Source of the DNA: Eledone cirrhosa
Taxonomy: Eukaryota
Direction: 5' to 3'
DNA length: 64,000 nt
Assembly (NCBI GenBank): GCA_964016885.1
Contig: OZ024740.1
Span: forward strand, 329,282,001-329,346,000
This document shows, one piece after another, positions 1,990 through 60,914 of this stretch. A program made the position numbers and the translations under genes. The notes beneath the pieces were generated by a model. The model was given only the letters and a program-made list of their open reading frames with translations, was not told the DNA's origin and ran no database searches. How positions within the stretch are numbered: the stretch's first letter is position 1; each line of letters starts with the position of its first letter.

Positions 1990-3760
<1,771 letters not shown>

Positions 3761-18363: not shown

Positions 18364-18454
18364 TAAAGAGTTAAACAATATTCAATAAGTATATGAAAGA
18401 ATGGGTTTTACAGTAGATTGGAAGCACTCTATGAGTAATAATTTTCCAGAGTTA

Positions 18455-19380
18455 TTAATATTAAAGCCAGAAGAACTATTATTAACTTCAACAACGAATA
18501 TTGGACCCGCTCAGATATGGATAGAAACTTTGATATCACTATGAGGGCTTCCGATTCCGCGCAAATCACAGATCTTCTGGGAATTTTCATATTAAATATG
18601 ATAAATAGAAAACTGCCGGAGATTACCGGTGGTTTATATAGGACGACATTTTATTTACCGTGGCCAAACACAACAATATAGAACTAAATAGAGTAAAGAA
18701 AAGTATAATAGAATTCTTTAAAAAGTACGACCTTAAGCTAGAAGTAGAAAATGGTACCAAAATAGTTAATTTCCTAGACGTTACCTTTATCTTAAACACT
18801 GGCTTCTATTACCCTTTTCATAAGCCCAATGAAAACTTAAACTATGTTAGTAACCATTCCAATCACCCTAGATCTGTAAAAAAAGCTATAGTAAATAGTT
18901 TGCAAAACGAATTAATAAAATATCAGCCAATAAAGCTATATTCGATGAAAACGCTGAATGCTACAACAACGCGTTAAAAAGGGCAGGATATATGATTAAT
19001 ATAGAATATGTGGATAATAATAATCCAAGTATTAATCTTAATAAAAATAATAACATATATAAGAAAAACTCTAATAATTATAATTCAAACACCCATACGC
19101 CAAATAAATCTAGGATGAGAACTAGAACTAAATCAGTCATTTCGTTCGCCCCCCCCCCCCCCCATCATCCACGTCTTTATCACAGCTCATATGGTGATTA
19201 AAAGAGAGGAATTTAAAATACTCCATTCTTTGGACGAAACTTCGGAACTGTGGAGTTTACCGCAACTCCAGTATATCAAATAACTGCGCACTCTGTACAA
19301 TGGAGACCCTGTTGATTATTAATAACTATGAGACCCTAATTAACAAAAAAGTGAATTATTCTCTAGTTGACTCCACAAAG
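18455..19380 (+). pseudogene. PLE reverse transcriptase / GIY-YIG endonuclease ORF relic
   Basis: Motifs as above, with frameshifts and stops; ORF 18660-18977 covers the RT thumb region. Confidence 0.88.
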
Positions 19381-23695: not shown

Positions 23696-23762
<67 letters not shown>

Positions 23763-23770
<8 letters not shown>

Positions 23771-25971
23771 TGACAGATTAAAGTTTAAGCAAAGAATCGC
23801 TGCTTTCACCCTTAACGGGATTTTCTGAAACTAACAAAGTCAATCTGTAAACGCAGAACTGGATATTTCAAAGAACGTTGCAATCGGAGGAAGACAGGAA
23901 GACGATACTTTAGTTCGTGGTAACGTTTGCTGGCAAAGAACGGGAAAAAACGTATAATACGCCATTAATAGGAGCAGTGAAAAACAATTACGCGCAAAGA
24001 CAGAACCACGTTTATGGTATAAAAGAGGTCGTAGACTAATGTTCTCTTAGGTGGTGCATAGAGACGTTCTCTGGCAATGAACGAAAAAACGAAGATAATA
24101 AGACATATGTGGAGCGTGGAGAACAATAGCACGCAAAGACAAAACCACGTAAATGGTATAGCAGAAGTCGTAGACTCAAATTCTAACTAGGAGACCAAAT
24201 GAGTCTCCGCTACAGAGTTTAGAACAAAGTAAATAAATACAATTCAGAAGTAATAGAAACAAATAAATACATACACGCAAACAGATACGTACATACACAA
24301 GCATACGCAAAATCTTACCATAGGTATACAAAACCACGCACATATAAATATGTGTGTGTTTATTCTTGTGTACAAATAAATAAATAATTATATAAACGTA
24401 TATAAGTAAATAAATACGTATATAACAAGCGCACACGCATACCTACATATAAATACACGAATGTTCGGAGACGTAAGTCAACTAAAACAAGAAGTACACA
24501 TATACACACACCCACCATACGTACGAACCTGCATACTCACGCAGACGCAAAACTCCCGTATACACATAGCCAAACCCTAAATACCAGAATATGTAAAAAA
24601 TTATACGCCATAACAGTCAAATATATGTACGAGAAGGTATACATACCTTCACAAAACATACGGGTTATATATACTTACCTATGCAAATAAGTAAAGGAAT
24701 AAACAAAACATATACTTAGCTCCCACATCAAGACGTAAAATATCCACGTATAGATCGTGCTATCCGTTAGGGTATAACGTGGGGCTGTAATACAGGAAAG
24801 TTTTGTGCAATTTATGTTTACAAGCCGAAATTGCCTCAGATTTTTTGTTTAAGATGTGGTCTTTGGCGTAGAGTATTTCCAGGGCCTCAGCGGCGCAGAG
24901 GTCACATGGTCTTTATTTCCGTTATATGATCTAGCCCTAGCTAGGATCTCCCAGTGTAACTTATATTGAGTGTGGTTGTCTTTTAGACTCCAGATATAAG
25001 CTGAAAGTGACGTCATATTCCTTCTTAGAGGGTAACGAAAAGAATAGGTATGCATGTAAAGACGCTGCTTGAAACTATTGGCGGTTAACCCTATGTAGGC
25101 CCTACGGGACGTGGGTGTTACAACCTTACATTTGTAGACAATGTTACTAGAGAGGCATTTTCCGGATAGGGGGCAATCAGCCCGATTCCTACAATTACAG
25201 TTAGTACTAACTACAGAGTTGCACGTGTTCCTACGCCTAGGTAGTTTAGTTAAATTTGAAGTTGTGATGTTATGTGCAAGGTTAGGAGTCGTAGAGTAAG
25301 ACATTTTAATAGTATTTCTATTAAAAATTTTACTATATTTATGTGCAGGCGGAATGTACATATCTGTTTGCGTGTATGTATTTATTTGTTTCTATTACTT
25401 CTGTATTGTATTTATTTACTTTGTTCTAAACTCTGTAGCGGAGACTGATTTGGTCTCCTAGTTAGAATTTTAGTCTACGACTTCTGCTATACCATTTACG
25501 TGGTTTTGTCTTTGCGTGCTATTGTTCTCCACGGTCCACATATGACTTATTATCTTCGTTTTTTCGTTCATTGCCAGAGATCGTCTCTATGCACCACCTA
25601 AGAGAACATTAGTCTACGACCTCTTTTATACCATAAACGTGGTTCTGTCTTTGCGCGTAATTGTTTTTCACCGCTCCTATTAATGACGTATTATTCGTTT
25701 TTTCCCGTCTTTGCCAGCGTACGTTACCACGAACCAAAGTATCGTCTTCCTGTCTTCCTCCGGTTGCAACGTTTTTTGAAATATCCAGTTCTGCGTTTAC
25801 AGATTGACTTTGTTAGTTTCAGAAGATCCTGTTAAGGGTGAAAGCAGCGATTCTTTGCTTAAACTTTAATCTGTTATTTTAATAAATATTTGCTCTACGG
25901 TTCCTATATATTTGATATATATTTTCCTTATCGATCCCTCTTTGGATTTTAGTCTTCAATTTTATTATTAT

Positions 25972-25975
<4 letters not shown>
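23763..25975 (-). mobile_element. 5'-truncated PLE with inverted pseudo-LTRs (23763-~24290 / ~25355-25883) inserted in (TA)n
   Basis: ~520-bp arms are near-identical reverse complements flanking a GIY-YIG ORF; the right arm has ~90 extra nt. Hammerhead-like fold at 25815-25865. Confidence 0.9.
24760..25355 (-). pseudogene. PLE GIY-YIG endonuclease domain (5'-truncated, one frameshift)
   Basis: KIFNRNTIKMSYSTTPNL..CNCRNRADCPLSGKCL..IVYKC..AYIGLTANSFKQR..H..SF..TSLSAYIWSLK..WEIL..ARSY; continues in another frame as LNKKSE..CKH. Confidence 0.92.
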
Positions 25976-26016
<41 letters not shown>

Positions 26017-26022
<6 letters not shown>

Positions 26023-26335
26023 TAAAAGGAAAAAAAATGGTGAAAAATACTTTAATTAGGAATAAGTATAAATTAGTAATAAGTATTGGTTAGTATTCAG
26101 GTTTAGTTTTAATTTCTAACATCACGTGCGCTCTATCTCAAAATTATTTTTGAAAAGCATTAGAAATGCGCAACCGGTAAGAACTTAAAACTAAAACTGA
26201 ATACTAACCAATACTTATTACTAATTTATACTTATTTCTAATTAAACTATTTTTCAGTGGGAAAAAATTGTCAGCATTTTATTTTCCTTTTACTAATATA
26301 TCACAACTCGTGTGTTACACCCCTATTTTTTTAAA
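26017..26335. mobile_element. short asymmetric inverted pLTR element with variant hammerhead (~26147-26183)
   Basis: 26017-26112 mirrors 26185-26300; the right arm has an extra tail; TA on both sides. Confidence 0.8.
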
Positions 26336-26799
26336 TATATATATATATATATATATATATAAGTATATGCTATAGTATTTAGAAGCAATATATGTCAAGA
26401 AGTATTGCACACAATGAACCTAACAAGAATTATGAACCGCAGATATGGAATTAAATAAGAATATAAGAATATATTTCACATCTTGCTATAATATATATTA
26501 TGATGACGCAACTAAAAGCTATACAGATGGATACTCCTTTCGTTTTCGATATATTTACCGACACACACCGACGCAGATGCACCAGGCACATACAAGCTCA
26601 AACACACACTGATGCATAGACAGACATGCACACAAAAACGCATGTAAATTACATCTACTATACTGAGTAGTCTTGAATAATATCAGACACTAATCAGCTT
26701 TTTAAAATATATTTCGTATCATAAATTTGTCGTTACATAATTAACATCGCTCTACTTTACATTAGGTTTAATTAAAACTTCTTGTATTTCTAAATAATT

Positions 26800-38580: not shown

Positions 38581-38640
38581 TGTTAAGAGGTCAACAGTTC
38601 AGGTTTATATTAAGACAAATATGTGTGTGTGTGTGTAAGA

Positions 38641-38841
38641 ACAAAGGAAGTGTGGTAAGGAACCAGATGGACCATAATGCACCAGAGTACTCGATACTTA
38701 GGGTCATAGTGGATAATTCGAAAAGAGCCAAGACCTTGACAGCTGACCTCCGGCCGTTTCGACAGCTAGATCTGAACTGTCGAAACAGATCTAGCTGTCG
38801 AAACGGGCGGAGCTCAGCCGTCGGGGTCCTGGCTCTTTTCC
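38641..38841. mobile_element. mini inverted element of the 56.3-58.7 kb family
   Basis: 38641-38765 mirrors 58615-58739. The short arm GTCGAAACGGGCGGAGCTCAGCCGTCGGGGTC ends at CCTATA-(TA)n. Rearranged centre. Confidence 0.8.
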
Positions 38842-51217: not shown

Positions 51218-51403
51218 CGGCCATTGCTAATAAAATTTGTTTTTGTTGATTTATGATGTATTATCTTAAGTCATGATAGGCAAACTGTAATATTGTTATT
51301 ATTAGTATATTTCTATCTAGCTAACTTGGTCATTTACAATACAAACATAAATATGAGGATATTTGTGTTTATCAAATATATTGATTTGTGGTAACATATA
51401 TAT

Positions 51404-51501
<98 letters not shown>

Positions 51502-52195
51502 GTTATTCCGGGTTGAATCGGAGGTAACCACAGTAAGTAAGGTATTCAATACATTGCAGAGTATAAAAGTTTTAACATAGATGAGATTCTACAGGACTAG
51601 AACTGTTTCATTCTTTAGAAATCATCATGGGTATCAAAAAATAAATATGGTATTTATAGGCCTCTACAAGTGGTAGGAGAGGGTGGGGAGTGGGATGGGT
51701 GTATGTCATTGGTTGATAGAAAAGGAATTCATTAAAAGCTAATTCTACAAAGCTATAGTTTAATTTTATTAATTTTTGTTTTTAGTAGACAGAATTCTAT
51801 AAACAGGTTCCGGATGGCATTCCATTCCTTGTCATTAAGTTTCTCTTAAGCTAACAGATGTCTATAAGATCAGTGGGGGGTCAGTCATGGTAGATAGAAT
51901 TAAAGGAAAGAGAGATTCTTTAAAAGCTAAATTCATTAAGGTTCTACTAAGTGACAAAGGTTTAGAGAATTCTGTAGACAGATTCAAAATACTGAGTGCA
52001 TATCTTACAATTATCTTCGAACTTCTCTTAAACTAATCAACTATATGCCAAAAATCAAAAGACACATTCACAAAAAAACACACTCACTCACACACTGGCG
52101 CGCAACCATAAACACACATACACATAGACATATACTCACATAAAATCACACACACATATATAAATATATTTATATATATATATACACACACATAT

Positions 52196-52240
<45 letters not shown>

Positions 52241-52353
52241 TACATATATATATACACACACACACACACATATACACATATATATACACTCACACACATA
52301 CATACATACACACAAATATACATGTGTATACAAATACATACATATACACATAC

Positions 52354-52394
<41 letters not shown>

Positions 52395-52454
52395 ATAGAT
52401 ACATACATATACACACATATATATATATATACATATACACACACATACACACAA

Positions 52455-52501
<47 letters not shown>

Positions 52502-52601
52502 AACAAATATATACATATACATACACACACACACACACATACACATACATATATATATACACACACACACACACATATACACATATATAAGGAAAAAGCA
52601 C

Positions 52602-52665
<64 letters not shown>

Positions 52666-53023
52666 TACACATATATATATATATATACAAATATACATAT
52701 ACACATATATATACACATACACATACACAATATATATACACATATATACATATACACACACACACACACACACACATACATACACACATACACACATACA
52801 TGCATACATACATATACACACATACACACAAATATATACACATACAAATAAATAAGTACTCAATAAATATACGCATATATGCAGGCACATAAAAACACCT
52901 CTACAGGCAGAAAATGTAGATAGGAAAGAGGTACTCACATAATCATAGTGGCCGTATTTCAGGTTGAGGAGGGGTGGCGGTAGGGTGGGAAGGAGGTATC
53001 GGGCCAATAGGGGGAGGTCGTTT

Positions 53024-53688
53024 TTAGCCATCGGGCTTTAACACTGGGTTAAAGTGTTTGAAATTTGCAAAGTTCTTGTGCATGCAGTTCGGGCAGTGTT
53101 CAGAGAGTTTGTTCAGTAGCGGGCCCTTGGCGAATAAAATTTCGTAGCTCTCTGAAATACAAAGGTCGCAGCCCTTGTGTCCTCCGTTGTAAGAGCGCGC
53201 TTCCTGGAGTATTTTCCCTTTAAGCGTGACGGGGGTGGAGTTCCTTTTGAGGTCCCAAACGTAGGAGGCGAGTGTTGTCTGATTTGATTTGTCCGGTCTT
53301 CTGAAGGAGTGGGTTTGGGCATACCAACGGGTCTTAAAGTTGTTGGAGGTCATGCCGATGTAAGTTTTTTTGCAATCCTCGGTGCCTGAGATGACATCGC
53401 ATTTGTATACGATATCATTTGTGAGGCATTTGTTTTCAAGTGGGCATGCTTCCTTATTTAGGCAATTACATAGAGCCCCAGTCCGGGGATTGGGTTCGGA
53501 GGTGGTTGGCTTATTTAATTTTTTAGAATTGTGGTTGGCTATATTCCTAGCTAGGTTAGGTGTGGTGGAGTAAGACAGTCTTATTGTGTTCTTATTAAAG
53601 ATGGTGTGGTACCTATGTTGTATGGGGAAGTGTAATTTCAGCATAGTGAAGAAAATCCTAGCTATCGGAGTAGATACCTCTCTATTGA
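53024..53688 (-). pseudogene. PLE GIY-YIG endonuclease domain, open but 5'-truncated (no RT)
   Basis: HFP..HRYHTIFNKNTIRLSYSTTPNL..CNCLNKEACPLENKCL..IVYKC..TYIGMTSNNFKTR..TTLASYVWDLK..CDLCISE..LLNK.SE..CMHK. Confidence 0.93.
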
Positions 53689-54142
53689 AAGCGCGCTCTT
53701 ACAACGGAGGACACAAGGGCTGCGACCTTTGTATTTCAGAGAGCTACGAAATTTTATTCGCCAAGGGCCCGCTACTGAACAAACTCTCTGAACACTGCCC
53801 GAACTGCATGCACAAGAACTTTGCAACTTTCAAACACTTTAAGCCAGTGTTAAAGCCCGATGGCTAAAAACGACCTCCCCCTATTGGCCCCTATACCTCC
53901 TTCCCACCCTACCCCCACCCCTCCTCAACCTGAAATACTGCCACTATGGTTATGTGAGTACCTCTTTCCTATCTACATTTTCTGCCTGTAGAGGTGTTTT
54001 TATGTGCCTGCGTATATGCGTATATTTATTGAGTACTTATTTATTTGTATGTGTATATATTTGTGTGTATGTGTGTATATGTATGTGTATGTATATATAT
54101 ATATCTATGTGTGTATATGTGTTTTATGTGTGTATATTTATG

Positions 54143-54191
<49 letters not shown>

Positions 54192-54258
54192 ATATATGTG
54201 TATGTATGTGTATGTGTATGTATATATGTATATATATATATATATGTGTATGTGTGTA

Positions 54259-54306
<48 letters not shown>

Positions 54307-54334
54307 CAGGTGTGTATATATATATGTATATATA

Positions 54335-54385
<51 letters not shown>

Positions 54386-54442
54386 CGTGAGAGAGAGTGT
54401 GTGTATATATATTTGTGTGTGTGTGTGTGTATGTGTGTATGC

Positions 54443-54482
<40 letters not shown>

Positions 54483-54561
54483 TTGTGTGTATATATGCGT
54501 ATATATGTTTGTATATATGTGTATATTTATGTATATGTCTGTGTATGTATGTGTATATATG

Positions 54562-54592
<31 letters not shown>

Positions 54593-54876
54593 GCATGTGT
54601 ATGTGTGTGTGTGTCTGTGTGTATATATGTGTATATGTGTGTGTGTGTATATATGTGTGTGTATATGTATGTATGTATATGTATATATGTGTATGTTTAT
54701 ATATATATATATATATATATGTGTATATGTATATATGTATATATATTTGTATATGTATGTATGTATGTATGTGTGTATGTGTGTATGTATGTGTGTGTGT
54801 GTGTGTGTGTATATGTATATATGTGTATATATATTGTGTGTGTGTGTATGTGTATATATATGTGTATATGTATATT

Positions 54877-54948
<72 letters not shown>

Positions 54949-55052
54949 GTGCTTTTTCCTTTTATATGTGTATATGTGTGTGTGTGTGTGTATATATATA
55001 TGTATGTGTATGTGTATGTGTGTGTGTATGTATATGTATATATTTGTTTATG

Positions 55053-55087
<35 letters not shown>

Positions 55088-55289
55088 GTGTGTTTGTGTG
55101 TATGTGTGTGTATATGTTTATATATTAATATATGTGTGTATATGTATGTATTATATATATATATATATATATGTATGTGTACATGTATGTATTTGTATAC
55201 ACACGTATATTTGTGTGTATGTATGTATGTGTGTGAGTGTATATATATGTGTATATATGTGTGTGTGTGTGTGTATATATATGTATGTA

Positions 55290-55338
<49 letters not shown>

Positions 55339-55904
55339 ATATATATATATATAAATATATTTATATATGTGTGTGTGTTTTTATGTGTGTATATGTGTAT
55401 GTGTATGTGTGTTTATGGTTGCGCGCCAGTGTGTGAGTGAGTGTGTTATTTTGTGAATGTGTCTGTTGATTTTTGGCATATAGTTGATTAGTTTAAGAGA
55501 AGTTCGAAGATAATTGTAAGATATGCCCTCAGTATTTTGAATCTGTCTACAGAATTCTCTAAACCTTTGTCACTTAGTAGAACCTTAATGAACTTAGCTT
55601 TTAAAGAATCTCCCTTTCCTTTAATTCTATCTACCATGACTGACCCCCCACTGATCTTATAGACATCTGTTAGCTTAAGAGAAACTTAATGACAAGGAAT
55701 GGTATGCCATCCGGAACCTGTTTATAGAATTCTGTCTGCCTTTGTTACTAAAAACAAAAATTAATAAAAATAAACTATAGCTTTGTAGAATTAGCTTTTA
55801 ATGAATTCCTTTTCTATCAACCAATGATCTACACCCATCCCACTCCCCACCCTCTCCTACCACTTGTAGAGACCTATAAATACCATATTTATTTTTTGAT
55901 ACCC

Positions 55905-55955
55905 AGATTCCTGATGAATTCTAGAGAATGAAACAGTTCTAGTCCTGTAGAATCT
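55905..55955 (+). ncRNA. canonical type I hammerhead ribozyme
   Basis: AGATTC-CTGATGA-ATTC(TAGA)GAAT-GAAA-CAG(TTCTAGTC)CTG-TA-GAATCT: all three stems are perfect; GUA cleavage triplet. Confidence 0.9.
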
Positions 55956-55957
55956 CA

Positions 55958-56043
<86 letters not shown>

Positions 56044-56088
56044 TTGTTTATTGGCAACATGACCCTCCCAAAGTCCTGTAGAATCTCA

Positions 56089-56180
<92 letters not shown>

Positions 56181-56213
56181 TTGTTTATTGGCAACATGAC
56201 CCTCCCAAAGTAT

Positions 56214-56281
<68 letters not shown>

Positions 56282-56286
<5 letters not shown>

Positions 56287-58737
56287 AACCAGTAAGACCC
56301 CGACAGCTGAGCTCAAGCCGTTTCGACGGCTAATTCTGGACTAAATGAACATTTATCCTGGTATTTAAATAGCCGATCTTCTCAAGGGGTAATTCCATAT
56401 ATGGTCAAGGTGATTGTCAAAAATCAGTAGTAATTCTGTGGTTGCAAATTAGTAGGGGAGATGGTGGCTAAACCTGCCAGTAGGAGAAAGAGGGGAGGGG
56501 GTGGAGTAGACCCAATCAAGCGTTGGTAGTGCCAGCTACAGCTGGGCATGAGGTCAAAGAAGATACAGGGGAGGGGGAGGGGGAGGAAGTCGGAACGGTA
56601 GGTAGAACAATGGGGGGTAGAAATAGGAAAGAAAAAATACTGAGAGTGAAGGAAAGCAAATAAGTGTAAAGAAAAAATTAAATTCTACGACCTAGGTGTC
56701 AGGCTATTGTTAGGCGAGAATAAAATAAAGAAAGAAAGAAAGAAGTAAATAAATAAATAAATAAATAAATAAGGAAATAAGTATAGAACTAGGTGGGACG
56801 AATTAGGCAAGGACCCTTTTAAGAGGTATAAGTACGTAAATGATACGGTGACTGGTCAACAAAAGGGGCCAAAATACTAAAGAGACTACCACGAAATAAA
56901 CAATAAAGGTTTCCATCCCGGGCCAGCAACGACCCAGTGCAGCAAAGTGAACTTGTACGACATAATAATTCTGAGTCCCGAGAAAAATATATACTAATGC
57001 TAACTCTAAAAGATCTAAAACAAGCTACATGAAAGTTCGTACGAAATAAAGGTAGAATACGGAGAAATAAGTTCAGAATCCACCCCGCCCAGAAGAAAAG
57101 CGAAGCAAGAAATACTGAAACGAAAAAAATAAGGCACAAGTGCCACTAAGAAATATAGAGGGCACAGAGAATAGTGGGAGCGGTCGGAAAAGGGGGGCAA
57201 GTATCCGGGGTCTAAGCCAACTGCTATAAAGGGCGGAGTCCGCCAAATCTATCAAAGACTAGGGGAGGGGGGAGTGGGGGTACTAAGGCTACATGGGGCC
57301 AAAGGGCAGCCTCGGGTGGGCGAGAAAAGACGCCGACAAAGGAGAAGAGCTGGGGTAGAAGGGCAAAGGAGAGAGGGGGGAAGGAAATAAAGGATGCGAT
57401 AAATGAATACAAAGAAGATCTTACGTCTTCCTTGGCAAGCAGGGGTTACCCATTGCAAAATCGGCAACACCCCAGTTGCCGATTTTGCAATGGGTAACCC
57501 CTGCTTGCCAAGGAAGACGTAAGATCTTCTTTGTATTCATTTATCGCATCCTTTATTTCCTTCCCCCCTCTCTCCTTTGCCCTTCTACCCCAGCTCTTCT
57601 CCTTTGTCGGCGTCTTTTCTCGCCCACCCGAGGCTGCCCTTTGGCCCCATGTAGCCTTAGTACCCCCACTCCCCCCTCCCCTAGTCTTTGATAGATTTGG
57701 CGGACTCCGCCCTTTATAGCAGTTGGCTTAGACCCCGGATACTTGCCCCCCTTTTCCGACCGCTCCCACTATTCTCTGTGCCCTCTATATTTCTTAGTGG
57801 CACTTGTGCCTTATTTTTTTCGTTTCAGTATTTCTTGCTTCGCTTTTCTTCTGGGCGGGGTGGATTCTGAACTTATTTCTCCGTATTCTACCTTTATTTC
57901 GTACGAACTTTCATGTAGCTTGTTTTAGATCTTTTAGAGTTAGCATTAGTATATATTTTTCTCGGGACTCAGAATTATTATGTCGTACAAGTTCACTTTG
58001 CTGCACTGGGTCGTTGCTGGCCCGGGATGGAAACCTTTATTGTTTATTTCGTGGTAGTCTCTTTAGTATTTTGGCCCCTTTTGTTGACCAGTCACCGTAT
58101 CATTTACGTACTTATACCTCTTAAAAGGGTCCTTGCCTAATTCGTCCCACCTAGTTCTATACTTATTTCCTTATTTATTTATTTATTTATTTATTTACTT
58201 CTTTCTTTCTTTCTTTATTTTATTCTCGCCTAACAATAGCCTGACACCTAGGTCGTAGAATTTAATTTTTTCTTTACACTTATTTGCTTTCCTTCACTCT
58301 CAGTATTTTTTCTTTCCTATTTCTACCCCCCATTGTTCTACCTACCGTTCCGACTTCCTCCCCCTCCCCCTCCCCTGTATCTTCTTTGACCTCATGCCCA
58401 GCTGTAGCTGGCACTACCAACGCTTGATTGGGTCTACTCCACCCCCTCCCCTCTTTCTCCTACTGGCAGGTTTAGCCACCATCTCCCCTACTAATTTGCA
58501 ACCACAGAATTACTACTGATTTTTGACAATCACCTTGACCATATATGGAATTACCCCTTGAGAAGATCGGCTATTTAAATACCAGGATAAATGTTCATTT
58601 AGTCCAGAATTAGCCGTCGAAACGGCTTGAGCTCAGCTGTCGGGGTCTTACTGGTTCCTATTACCCACTCTACTACCTCAAGTATTGAGTACTTTGGTGC
58701 GTTATGGTCCACCTGGTTCCTTACCACATTTCCTTCG

Positions 58738-58739
<2 letters not shown>
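56282..58739. mobile_element. apparently perfect 2.38-kb palindrome (1187-bp arms, 6-bp spacer ACCCCA) of a non-coding PLE 3' end, with 78-nt extra tail
   Basis: 56282-57468 mirrors 57475-58661; the ORF track gives identical peptides on both strands; TA tracts on both flanks. Confidence 0.9.
58553..58646 (+). ncRNA. hammerhead ribozyme with U3:A8 core variant (mirror copy 56297-56390, - strand)
   Basis: ACCCC-TTGAGAA-GA(T)CGGCTA..TAGCCGTC-GAAA-CGGC(TTGAGCTCA)GCTG-TC-GGGGT. Confidence 0.8.
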
Positions 58740-58793
<54 letters not shown>

Positions 58794-58814
58794 GGAGATA
58801 GAGGAGAAATTGTG

Positions 58815-58930
58815 AGGGCGCGTGGCAAGTTGTTAGAGAATTGGATTCGCAATCGTGAGGTTGAGTGTTCGATTCCCAGACCAGGTGATGCGGTCTCTTT
58901 GGGCAAGACACTTTATTTCACGTTGCTCTT
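58815..58930 (+). mobile_element. tRNA-derived CORE-like SINE
   Basis: GGCGCGTGGC..GTTAG A-box, GTTCGATTCCC B-box, TTGGGCAAGACACTT core-like motif. Confidence 0.75.
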
Positions 58931-59071
58931 TTTACCTGGATTTGCGACCGATATATAGTATTAGCCATTGGAAAAACCAACAGAATCATGAATTCCTCTT
59001 GCCGATTTGACGAAAGTCGATCGACAGATATATATATCGATTGACAGATATATATATATATGTCGATTGAC

Positions 59072-59445: not shown

Positions 59446-60914
59446 CACCGTTTAAAATATTTATTGTTCCCCGGTTCTAAGTATGATTTCCTGGTTTGTC
59501 ATATCCCATTATCATAAGAACACACTATTATTTAATAAAAAGTTTGGGTTTGTGGATGACAGTTTCATATTACAAATTTTCATATTTTTCAAGAAAAAAC
59601 ACATTTTAAAAAGATTTATCAGTTCGTATAATTAAATCAACAGAGTATATATTTATTTTATTACACAAGCTTATCAAAAGCAAATAAGTAAAAACAAATA
59701 ACACTTATAAAGCAACTTATACACGTCAGAAATGACTGGATTTCCTGGATTTGCGGTTGTAGTCCAGGTCGCATTCCCGCACTAGCCCCCAGATATAGTC
59801 CCCCATCATTTTTTCATTGTAGTGGCCCTGGTACCTCCGCTCGATCTCTTTCACATCTTGGTGGAATTGTTCGCCTTGTTCTTCTGAGGAGGCGCCCATA
59901 TTGTCCTTGAATTTTTCCAGGTGAGCGTCCAGCATATGGAGTTTAAGCGACATCCTGCACCCCATGGCGCCAAAAGCCTTTATCAGATCCTGCACCAGTT
60001 GCTGGTAGTTTTCAGCTCTGTAGTTGCCCAGAAAGCCCTTAACAACTACCTTGAAACAGTTCCATGCTGTTCTCTCAATCCTATTGAGCTTATTGGAGAA
60101 CTCGGTAGACTCAAACACCTTCTTTATTTGAGGGCTAACAAAAATTCCACCTTTGATTTTGGCCTCAGATAACTTGGGGAAGAACTCAAGAAAGTACTTA
60201 AAAGCGGCTTATTCTTGGTTGAGAGCCTTCACAAACTGTTTATCAACCCCAAATTAATGTGCAGTGGAGGCATGAGCACAATCCTGGGATCAACCAATGG
60301 CTCCCACATGAAGTTCCGGGTCCCAACTATAAATTCTGTTCGCTGCTCCCACTTCTTTCCTTTGTAGTGATCAGAGGTGGCTCTGATGTCCCAAAGGCAG
60401 AGGAAGCATTGGAATTTGATAAAGCCTCCTTGGAGTCCAAGCAGGAAAGCCACCATCTTGAAGTCTCCAATGATTTGTACTGGTTGTATTGCAGAGCTTC
60501 CAAGAGAACTTTCACACTGTAGTAATCTTCATTCAGGCAGACTAAATGAGCTAGAGGTAGTGTCGGGAACGTGTTTCTATTTGGAGGAGGACACCCTTCA
60601 AACTTGTGGTGCAGCTGTCTATAAATATCCCCCACTCCTTGGGCAAAAACGGCATCCCAATAACGTCAAATAGTCCAGGCACGTCATGGCAGAAGCAGAG
60701 ACCATCCCTAAGAGTGTAAAAGCCTGAGAAAGGTTCGTGTCGACTTCTCTGACTAAGCAAATTACACTTACATACAACGTAAAATCCCGCATACAAATAA
60801 TGAATAGTGAATAGCGAGAATAGCTAGAAACTTTTAACTGTTTAATAGCACTTTTTTATTTAAAAGTTATTACAAGCCAGAAACAGAGAAAAAAGATTTT
60901 TTTGTTACACGGTG
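59446..60914 (-). mobile_element. Chapaev3-like (CMC) DNA transposon, internally deleted/decayed
   Basis: Transposase motifs LLGLQGGF.KF.CFLCLWD, PPLHINLGL, MSLKLHMLDAHL..NMGA.SEEQGE.FHQD..ERRYQG..MMGDY.W. Imperfect termini CACCGTTTAAAA (59446) and CACCGTGTAACA (60914, - strand). Confidence 0.8.
59726..60770 (-). pseudogene. frameshifted Chapaev3-type transposase
   Basis: Four ORF fragments (60551-60796, 60327-60635, 60229-60456, 59726-60118) join into one transposase C-terminal half. Confidence 0.8.

What the first reader, a model, noticed from the sequence alone, without database searches (positions are those of the whole stretch)
56282..58739. Perfect 2.38-kb palindrome with 6-bp spacer
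Seen: I found no mismatch between the 1187-bp arms. Established: such palindromes are unstable and can also be fold-back read artefacts. Its architecture (TA flanks, 78-nt extra tail, same family and endpoint as the diverged 38.6-kb mini-element) matches real insertions, so it may be a very recent event from an active family. Transcription would give ~1.2 kb of dsRNA, a possible ADAR or siRNA substrate.
Basis: partly seen in the sequence, partly recalled or inferred. Interest (0 to 1): 0.7.

Follow-up and report, generated by a model that had tools for sequence, protein, structure and literature searches.

The report
Head-to-head Penelope retroelement insertion
This perfect 2.4-kb palindrome is two shortened copies of a young Penelope-like jumping gene joined head to head in a TA repeat, a known kind of insertion, and its thousands of sister copies indicate that both halves were likely written from one RNA molecule, which would help explain how this class of element inserts.

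Summary
Confirmed: 1,187-bp arms, no mismatch, spacer ACCCCA, 78-nt tail on one side. It is a non-coding, 5'-truncated insertion of a young Hydra-type Penelope-like retroelement (3,531-bp unit; 716-aa telomerase-like RT plus C-terminal GIY-YIG). Both ends are fixed family ends: 7,128 tailless and 22,895 tailed exact hits genome-wide. Perfect arms are ordinary here (22 of 47 long two-armed copies; one has about 3-kb arms), and the flanks are not mirrored, so an artefact is unlikely, though no read spans it. The family data bear on mechanism. Arms share subfamily alleles 90 to 1. Short copies turn at a likely transcription start (9,515) or exactly at a predicted hammerhead cut (124), rarely mixed (17; about 260 expected if independent). 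Best model: two target-primed cDNAs from two start sites on one RNA, joined by microhomology; the window copy is the minority case in which both stopped within 9 nt. The structure is known; the one-RNA and ribozyme-footprint evidence was not found in my five paper searches. The scan reported similar readings before on other DNA of this genome.

The parts
56282..57468 (-). Tailless arm: inverted copy of element positions 2345-3531 (3' UTR, hammerhead region, likely promoter); outer end is the family's fixed tailless end
   Evidence: tailless end plus (TA)n found 7,128 times
57466..57477 (+). Junction AAC-ACCCCA-GTT: 3-nt microhomology; the 6-nt spacer is element sequence of the tailed arm (unit 2336-2347)
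   Evidence: unique in the assembly
57466..58739 (+). Tailed arm: element positions 2336-3609; starts 12 nt after the ORF stop, so no coding sequence
58553..58646 (+). Predicted type I hammerhead: stem I ACCCC/GGGGT, core TTGAGAA (U3-A8 variant), stem II around a long loop, GAA, stem III with loop TGAGCTC, cut after C58641 (unit 3511); mirrored at 56297-56390 on the minus strand
   Evidence: MFE topology (z only -0.45); position 7 varies across subfamilies and stem II covaries; no Rfam hit
58572..58605 (+). Likely core promoter inside hammerhead loop II: TATTTAAA at -29 and TTAGTC initiator-like motif, +1 near A58601 (unit 3471); mirrored near 56342 on the minus strand
   Evidence: 72 of 100 sampled tailless arms stop at unit 3466-3478; promoter function inferred, motif consensus recalled
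58662..58739 (+). 78-nt tail: sequence between the two inferred reverse-transcription start sites; equals the first 78 nt after the tailless end in tandem arrays
   Evidence: tailed end plus (TA)n found 22,895 times
56220..56283 (.). Left (TA)n target
58739..58807 (.). Right (TA)16 then (AG)n; a target-site duplication cannot be read inside the microsatellite
38640..38838 (-). Mini-element of a diverged subfamily (79% identical): tailed arm and tailless arm turning near the likely transcription start
   Evidence: its stem II variant matches a longer copy listed

Best explanation
The palindrome is a young, non-coding, 5'-truncated insertion of a Hydra-type Penelope-like retrotransposon in a (TA)n repeat, likely made when two DNA copies were primed from opposite strands of the target, at two fixed start sites 78 nt apart on one RNA molecule, and were then likely joined head to head by a 3-nt microhomology. 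Shown: family identity, two fixed outer ends, shared alleles in the two arms, coupled turning points in short copies, microhomology at junctions. Inferred: the GIY-YIG domain nicks both strands of the (TA)n; RT starts at unit 3609 from one nick and at unit 3531 from the other; each cDNA runs towards the RNA 5' end; the two 3' ends anneal and are filled in. When the template is the promoter-initiated RNA both stop near +1 (about 200-bp minis). When it is the hammerhead-cut fragment both stop at 3512. When it is a read-through RNA from a tandem array they usually stop at unrelated places; in about 1 of 12 long copies, as here, they stop together (a broken RNA end or a shared pause) and give a near-perfect palindrome. 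No host function is implied.
For: Family: tandem arrays with 3,531-bp period and an intact ORF; AlphaFold model pLDDT 92.7 whose best PDB match is telomerase TERT, E 1.8e-8; Hydra motifs conserved in 110 aligned relatives. Two primers: of 100 sampled tailless ends, 87 have a head-to-head partner arm; in 47 long two-armed copies the tailless arm is longer in 15, the tailed arm in 31, equal in 1, and tandem arrays end in either end. One source: arm-to-arm differences 43 in 54,121 nt versus 286.5 (median) and 98.5 (nearest) to arms of other insertions; subfamily alleles shared by both arms 90, discordant 1 (L047 left out). One RNA end: start/start 9,515, cut/cut 124, mixed 17 against 2-4 cut/cut and about 260 mixed under independence; spacers differ between copies, so they formed separately. 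Near-equal long arms: 4 of 47 within 20 nt versus 0.6 expected, p 0.003; 3 of 46, p 0.018 without the window copy; in one of them (L161) the loop belongs to the tailless arm. Exact microhomology of 2 nt or more at 24 of 45 measurable junctions. In vitro, a Penelope protein nicks and extends both strands and starts at two internal RNA sites that bound the tail (PMC11167929).
Against: No read or contig was shown to span this junction or both flanks. For this single copy, snap-back of the tailed cDNA on the 3-bp stem fits the sequence equally well; 3 of the 4 near-equal copies have the loop on the tailed arm. One RNA requires one RT to displace the other cDNA, which is unshown. Shared alleles alone would also follow from two RNAs of one locus, from gene conversion or from assembly polishing. 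The counts are exact-match counts; the mixed pattern excludes junctions whose next base equals the natural one, and the 9,515 include older subfamilies. The long-copy sample is not random (best BLAST hits plus the first 100 of 177 pattern hits). The hammerhead fold has no significant z-score, no Rfam hit, was missed by my own descriptor because of a stem II bulge, and one subfamily has a C3/A8 mismatch. The transcription start has no RNA support.
Confidence: 0.62

Rival explanations
1. Real Penelope-like insertion, but this copy's second arm came from snap-back: the tailed cDNA folded on its own 3' end (AAC/GTT stem, 6-nt loop), was copied as DNA, and the copy was cut or joined at the tailless site.
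For: The loop lies on the tailed strand, as snap-back needs; 3 of 4 near-equal long copies agree; near-equal arms are enriched; self-priming was proposed for such palindromes in PMC3846280. Snap-back would also couple the turning points of short copies.
Against: Cannot make the 15 of 47 copies whose tailless arm is longer, the arrays that end tailless, or L161, so a second primer is needed anyway; it needs a separate step that ends the copy exactly at unit 3531. Any microhomology join between nearby stops looks like a small hairpin, so the stem is no proof.
Confidence: 0.17
2. Two cDNAs primed from opposite strands, but from two RNA molecules of one source locus; coupled turning points come from local pools of one RNA species or from shared RT pauses.
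For: Explains shared alleles and unequal arms without strand displacement; the related protein is predicted to be a dimer (PMC11167929).
Against: Mixed start/cut copies are 17 where about 260 are expected; near-equal long arms at four unrelated positions are enriched.
Confidence: 0.13
3. Assembly artefact: a fold-back read or arm homogenisation created or perfected the palindrome at this locus.
For: No spanning read seen; perfect identity; junction unique; a 137-bp tandem duplication and long TA runs lie just left of it.
Against: Flanks are not mirrored; the two outer ends are the two different biological ends of the family, each joined to (TA)n; the same layout recurs in 47 long and thousands of short copies, many with unequal or slightly diverged arms. 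Polishing could hide an odd mismatch but not build this layout.
Confidence: 0.06
4. A foldback DNA transposon or MITE with long terminal inverted repeats.
For: Long inverted arms, TA flanks, short palindromic relatives.
Against: Ends are asymmetric, arm lengths vary by 5' truncation, and the parent encodes RT plus GIY-YIG in tandem arrays.
Confidence: 0.02

Closest known systems
Hydra clade of Penelope-like elements (PMC8557442; passages and supplementary file 1 seen), e.g. Hydra-1_Obim, Penelope-13_HM
   Same: C-terminal GIY-YIG, RW(K/R), DKT, CxCx5C linker, no CCHH, CxxC and CxH flanking motifs, (TA)n target, hammerhead near the end; Penelope-13_HM is listed with a 5'-truncated inverted copy at its 5' end.
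   Different: Unit 3,531 bp with a 1.2-kb 3' UTR (Hydra elements are generally under 3 kb); tail 78 nt (30-40 nt in the paper's general figure); hammerhead core U3-A8 with a long loop II, whereas all Hydra rows in the paper's table have C3-G8 and short loops. Compared with Hydra-1_Obim by eye only: same protein motifs, different hammerhead, so a different family.
Inverted-pLTR insertions of Adineta vaga Penelope elements (PMC3846280; passages seen)
   Same: Head-to-head inverted copies, one-sided tail, palindromes at the inverted junction, microhomology joins.
   Different: That paper reads the palindromes as self-priming on an antisense template. Here the copies favour two target-primed cDNAs on a sense RNA whose 5' end sets the turn.
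PAc (Poseidon of Anolis) in vitro mechanism (PMC11167929; parts 1-2 of 4 read)
   Same: Two internal RT start sites bounding the tail; both target strands nicked and extended; AT-rich target.
   Different: That work found hammerhead cleavage unnecessary in vitro and no RNA-seq ends at the cut site, and did not address inverted insertions. Here 124 genomic copies turn at the predicted cut on both arms.
LINE-1 twin priming (recalled, no call)
   Same: Two primers from the target on one RNA give an inversion joined by microhomology.
   Different: L1 inversions copy non-overlapping parts of the RNA; here both cDNAs cover the same region from fixed start sites, giving inverted repeats.
U3-A8 minimal hammerheads of Schistosoma Cercyon elements (PMC4209133; parts 1-2 of 4 read)
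   Same: U3-A8 core covariation, long stem II, G10.1-C11.1 pair, location in the terminal repeat.
   Different: Here stem III is a full 6-bp helix and loop II holds the likely transcription start.

Membership tests
Penelope-like elements (EN+) | Single ORF with telomerase-related RT | tested here: met
   716-aa ORF in parent copies; top Foldseek hits are TERT structures; YRDD motif conserved. Pfam gave 0 families and PDB sequence search nothing useful.
Penelope-like elements (EN+) | GIY-YIG endonuclease | tested here: met
   VIY..YIG motif at residues 590-607, Y100/G100 in 110 relatives; assigned by motif and by the Hydra alignments seen, not by a profile hit.
Penelope-like elements (EN+) | 5' truncation, tandem/partial tandem copies, inverted 5'-truncated copy, one-sided tail | tested here: met
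Hydra clade | C-terminal EN; RWK; DKT; CxCx5C linker | tested here: met
   RWR in this protein (K in 70% of relatives), DKT at 116, CNCPDRSIC at 571; definitions
Hydra clade | No CCHH motif; CxxC and CxH near the conserved E and N | tested here: met
   one Cys between VIY and YIG; CNLC at 669, CKH at 697
Hydra clade | Insertion into (TA)n | tested here: met
Hydra clade | Canonical hammerhead in the terminal repeat | tested here: inconclusive
   This family has a U3-A8 variant with hammerhead topology; 18 of 77 related loci carry a canonical C3-G8 motif on the sense strand, 1 antisense, 0.2 in shuffles.
Hydra clade | Placement inside the clade in an RT tree with reference elements | not tested
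   Reference sequences were only seen in a supplement and were not used in any tool.
Hammerhead ribozyme (type I) | Core N3UGAN-N8-A with 3-8 pair, GAA, A15.1-U16.1, UH site, three stems | tested here: met
   sequence and MFE fold; position 7 varies over G, C, T, A and stem II covaries in listed copies; some subfamilies break the 3-8 pair
Hammerhead ribozyme (type I) | Self-cleavage | not testable with these tools
   Indirect only: about 63 of the first 100 of 229 tiny copies turn at 3512-3513 on both arms (counted by hand); no Rfam match.
Foldback DNA transposon / MITE | Symmetric terminal inverted repeats and a transposase parent | tested here: not met
   asymmetric ends; RT-bearing parent

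The most novel reading that the evidence does not exclude
Penelope-like elements build their inverted ends by priming twice on one RNA from two fixed start sites, so the turning point records that RNA's 5' end. In this family the record shows a hammerhead cutting in the germ line (124 copies turn at the cut on both arms), and the promoter sits inside the ribozyme's loop II, so only read-through RNA can self-cleave, which separates the RT start sites from the coding body and would limit copying of full elements.
Probability: 0.45. Interest if true: 0.65.

Novelty: new member of a known kind. Interest (0 to 1): 0.42.

Why it matters
The palindrome alone is an ordinary product of a known class. 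The family is useful because it is young, has tens of thousands of copies and intact parents. How Penelope-like elements form tandem and inverted insertions, and what their hammerheads do, are named as open questions in PMC8557442 and PMC4209133. The copy statistics give sharp, testable predictions: one RNA, two start sites, turn at the RNA 5' end, a minority at the ribozyme cut. They also warn that long perfect palindromes in such assemblies should not be discarded as fold-back artefacts by default.

Tried and rejected
Rfam: no match in the window at gathering score and none of use at E up to 10 on the hammerhead region. Pfam: 0 families for the parent protein; the alignment scan exceeded the size limit and was not repeated. 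PDB by sequence: one chance hit. Sequencing runs: no RNA holder listed. Contigs of runs X1-X3 and X6 laid on the centre: no listed piece bridged the junction, 321 pieces were not shown, and these runs lack the window's alleles at 57539 and 57580 almost entirely, so they are probably not the assembled individual; uninformative. RAD reads X21-X23 and X1 on the right flank: the repeat part was skipped and only reads of the neighbouring dispersed repeat were laid; uninformative. Naiad clade considered first and rejected: the EN is C-terminal. ADAR footprint in the template RNA: A>G is only 3 of 34 alleles shared by both arms and private to an insertion; T>C is 13 of 34, which fits RT G-U misincorporation (recalled) or editing of an antisense strand; not resolved. 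Edge effect at unit 3512 from my first pattern: excluded with shorter anchors. RT pausing at stem III as the cause of the 3512 turn: disfavoured because it would not couple the two arms, and the promoter-initiated RNA is not predicted to form stem III. One search was the reverse complement and returned the same 17 loci. Five paper searches found no paper stating the one-RNA model or ribozyme-cut turning points for these elements; subscription journals are largely not searched, and supplements of the bioRxiv preprint (passages only) could not be seen.

Full report
Observation. The palindrome is exact: arms 56282-57468 and 57475-58661, 1,187 nt each, spacer ACCCCA. The right arm continues for 78 nt to 58739, and both ends meet (TA)n. 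The flanks are different from each other. The mini-element at 38640-38838 matches the last 141 nt at 79% and has the same layout. The arms hold no meaningful ORF. The window lies on contig C1 of a 3.0-Gb assembly; I did not test the organism (earlier notes call it octopus).

Parent element. A search with the right arm gave 2,314 candidates, 40 scored, mostly 98-100% identical, several in tandem with a 3,531-bp period. The unit holds one ORF of 716 aa from the first Met. It has 2,215 relatives at E 0.001 or better among 7,998 scored, the best full-length ones about 42% identical. The model is confident (pLDDT 92.7) and its best solved matches are telomerase RTs. Motifs RWR, DKT, YRDD, CxCx5C, VIY..YIG, CxxC and CxH are conserved in the 110-sequence alignment and match the Hydra clade definition in PMC8557442 (passages; supplement). 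No tree was built. The window copy covers unit 2336-3609: the 3' UTR from 12 nt after the stop, the terminal region and the tail.

Two fixed ends. The tailless end followed by (TA)n occurs 7,128 times and the tailed end 22,895 times, controls 0. I fetched the first 100 listed tailless ends: 87 have a head-to-head partner arm, 12 are solo, 1 is rearranged. An inverted truncated copy with a one-sided tail is the known Penelope pattern, and two internal RT start sites bounding the tail were shown in vitro for an Anolis element that extends both target strands.

Is a perfect arm pair special? From the best BLAST hits and the first 100 of 177 hits to an internal pattern I kept 47 simple two-armed insertions with both arms reaching past unit 3400; 13 tandem or irregular junctions and 3 with one short arm were set aside. 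Arms differ at 43 of 54,121 sites, against 286.5 (median) and 98.5 (nearest) for arms of other insertions; 22 of 47 have no difference. L164 has about 3-kb arms, no difference and a 9-nt loop. Alleles also seen in other insertions are shared by both arms 90 times and discordant once (older copy L047 left out). So both arms come from one source, and zero mismatches in 1,187 nt has probability 0.39. What is uncommon is near-equal length: 4 of 47 within 20 nt versus 0.6 by permutation (p 0.003; 3 of 46, p 0.018 without the window copy). Otherwise arm lengths are uncorrelated (Spearman -0.14). The tailless arm is the longer in 15 of 47, which snap-back of the tailed cDNA cannot give. Exact microhomology of 2 nt or more occurs at 24 of 45 measurable junctions (about 16% expected by my arithmetic for random joins).

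Turning points mark RNA 5' ends. Of the 100 sampled tailless arms, 72 stop at unit 3466-3478, and 52 of 87 partners start at 3467-3478. TATTTAAA lies 29 nt upstream of A3471 in TTAGTC, and one subfamily reads TCAGT there; I read this as the transcription start, from recalled promoter consensus, with no RNA support. A second peak sits at 3512: of 229 tiny copies found with shorter anchors, about 63 of the first 100 turn at 3512-3513 on both arms, with varied spacers (counted by hand; the spacer-less ones could equally be 3511 joined by CG). Position 3511/3512 is the predicted cut of a type I hammerhead: the MFE fold of 58548-58652 gives the three-way junction with 7-, 3- and 1-nt linkers (z -0.45, not significant by itself). 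The core is U3-A8, a variant described in PMC4209133. Among 5,066 genomic hits to a loose descriptor, the first 100 vary at position 7 over all four bases and one diverged copy covaries in stem II; a subfamily with C3/A8 also occurs. Canonical hammerheads lie at the matching place in 18 of 77 related loci; the same descriptor missed this family's own motif because of the stem II bulge, and Rfam found nothing.

Coupling. Genome-wide exact counts: both arms near the start 9,515, both at the cut 124, one of each 17 (same loci). Independent arms would give about 2 and 261; with a rough 4,300 for the young subfamily, 4 and 257 (my hand count of 53 in 100 suggests nearer 3,800, which changes little). 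The mixed pattern misses junctions whose next base is the natural one, a loss too small to close the gap. The two arms therefore share a template end. One RNA primed twice explains this together with the unequal long arms. Snap-back explains the coupling but not the longer tailless arms. The likely start lies inside loop II, so promoter-initiated RNA lacks half of the ribozyme and is predicted to fold otherwise; only read-through RNA could cleave in cis. That step is inference.

The window copy. Its arms stop at unit 2345 and 2336 and overlap by AAC/GTT. I read it as two cDNAs that stopped together on a read-through RNA. Snap-back cannot be excluded for this one copy; in L161 the loop belongs to the tailless arm, which needs two cDNAs.

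Artefact. The junction is unique in the assembly. Public runs did not settle the matter. Unmirrored flanks, two different biological ends and many sister copies make an artefact unlikely (about 6%).

Novelty. The structure is known and the family is a new member of the Hydra type. Five searches found no paper with the one-RNA or ribozyme-cut evidence, within a library that lacks most subscription papers. After forming my reading I found that the scan had reached similar readings on other palindromes of this genome (nothing near this locus); these are unreviewed notes and not independent support. The dsRNA idea remains untested.

Noticed in passing
window 23758-25975: Another Hydra-type insertion of a different family: inverted arms 96% identical over 537 nt in (TA)n, endonuclease fragment 51% identical to the parent protein at 24763-25364 (minus), extra sequence beyond the right arm.
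   Followed up: partly
window 51400-55966: A third Hydra-type insertion directly left of the finding: arms about 91% identical over 1.3 kb, endonuclease fragment at 53027-53686 (minus), canonical CTGATGA...GAAA hammerhead-like motif at about 55905-55950 in the right arm, degraded in the left.
   Followed up: partly
window 18445-19009: Broken RT fragments 39-56% identical to the parent protein.
   Followed up: no
window 55945-56219: Tandem duplication of about 137 bp with an internal (TA)n just left of the palindrome; real or assembly slip unknown.
   Followed up: no
window 25975-26361: A further imperfect palindrome of about 390 bp next to the 23.8-kb insertion.
   Followed up: no
window 58810-59000: Very high-copy dispersed repeat (depth over 100,000) that resembles a tRNA-derived SINE (recalled, not tested).
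   Followed up: no
window 59726-60208 (minus): 160-aa open frame resembling a DNA-transposon protein fragment (recalled, not tested).
   Followed up: no
L164 (G000:C3:119684100-119690800), L156, L161: Longer near-perfect palindromes of the same family, up to about 6.2 kb with no substitution between arms in L164.
   Followed up: yes
L031-L033 (G000:C1:437.198-437.214 Mb); L034-L036: Tandem arrays of 3-4 near-identical full units with intact ORF; likely source loci.
   Followed up: partly
family arms: T>C exceeds A>G on the sense strand among private alleles (13 vs 3 shared by both arms; 7 vs 2 in one arm); cause unresolved.
   Followed up: partly
window 57539, 57580: Alleles present in 8 and 2 of about 47 assembly copies are nearly absent from runs X1-X3, suggesting a lineage-specific young subfamily.
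   Followed up: partly
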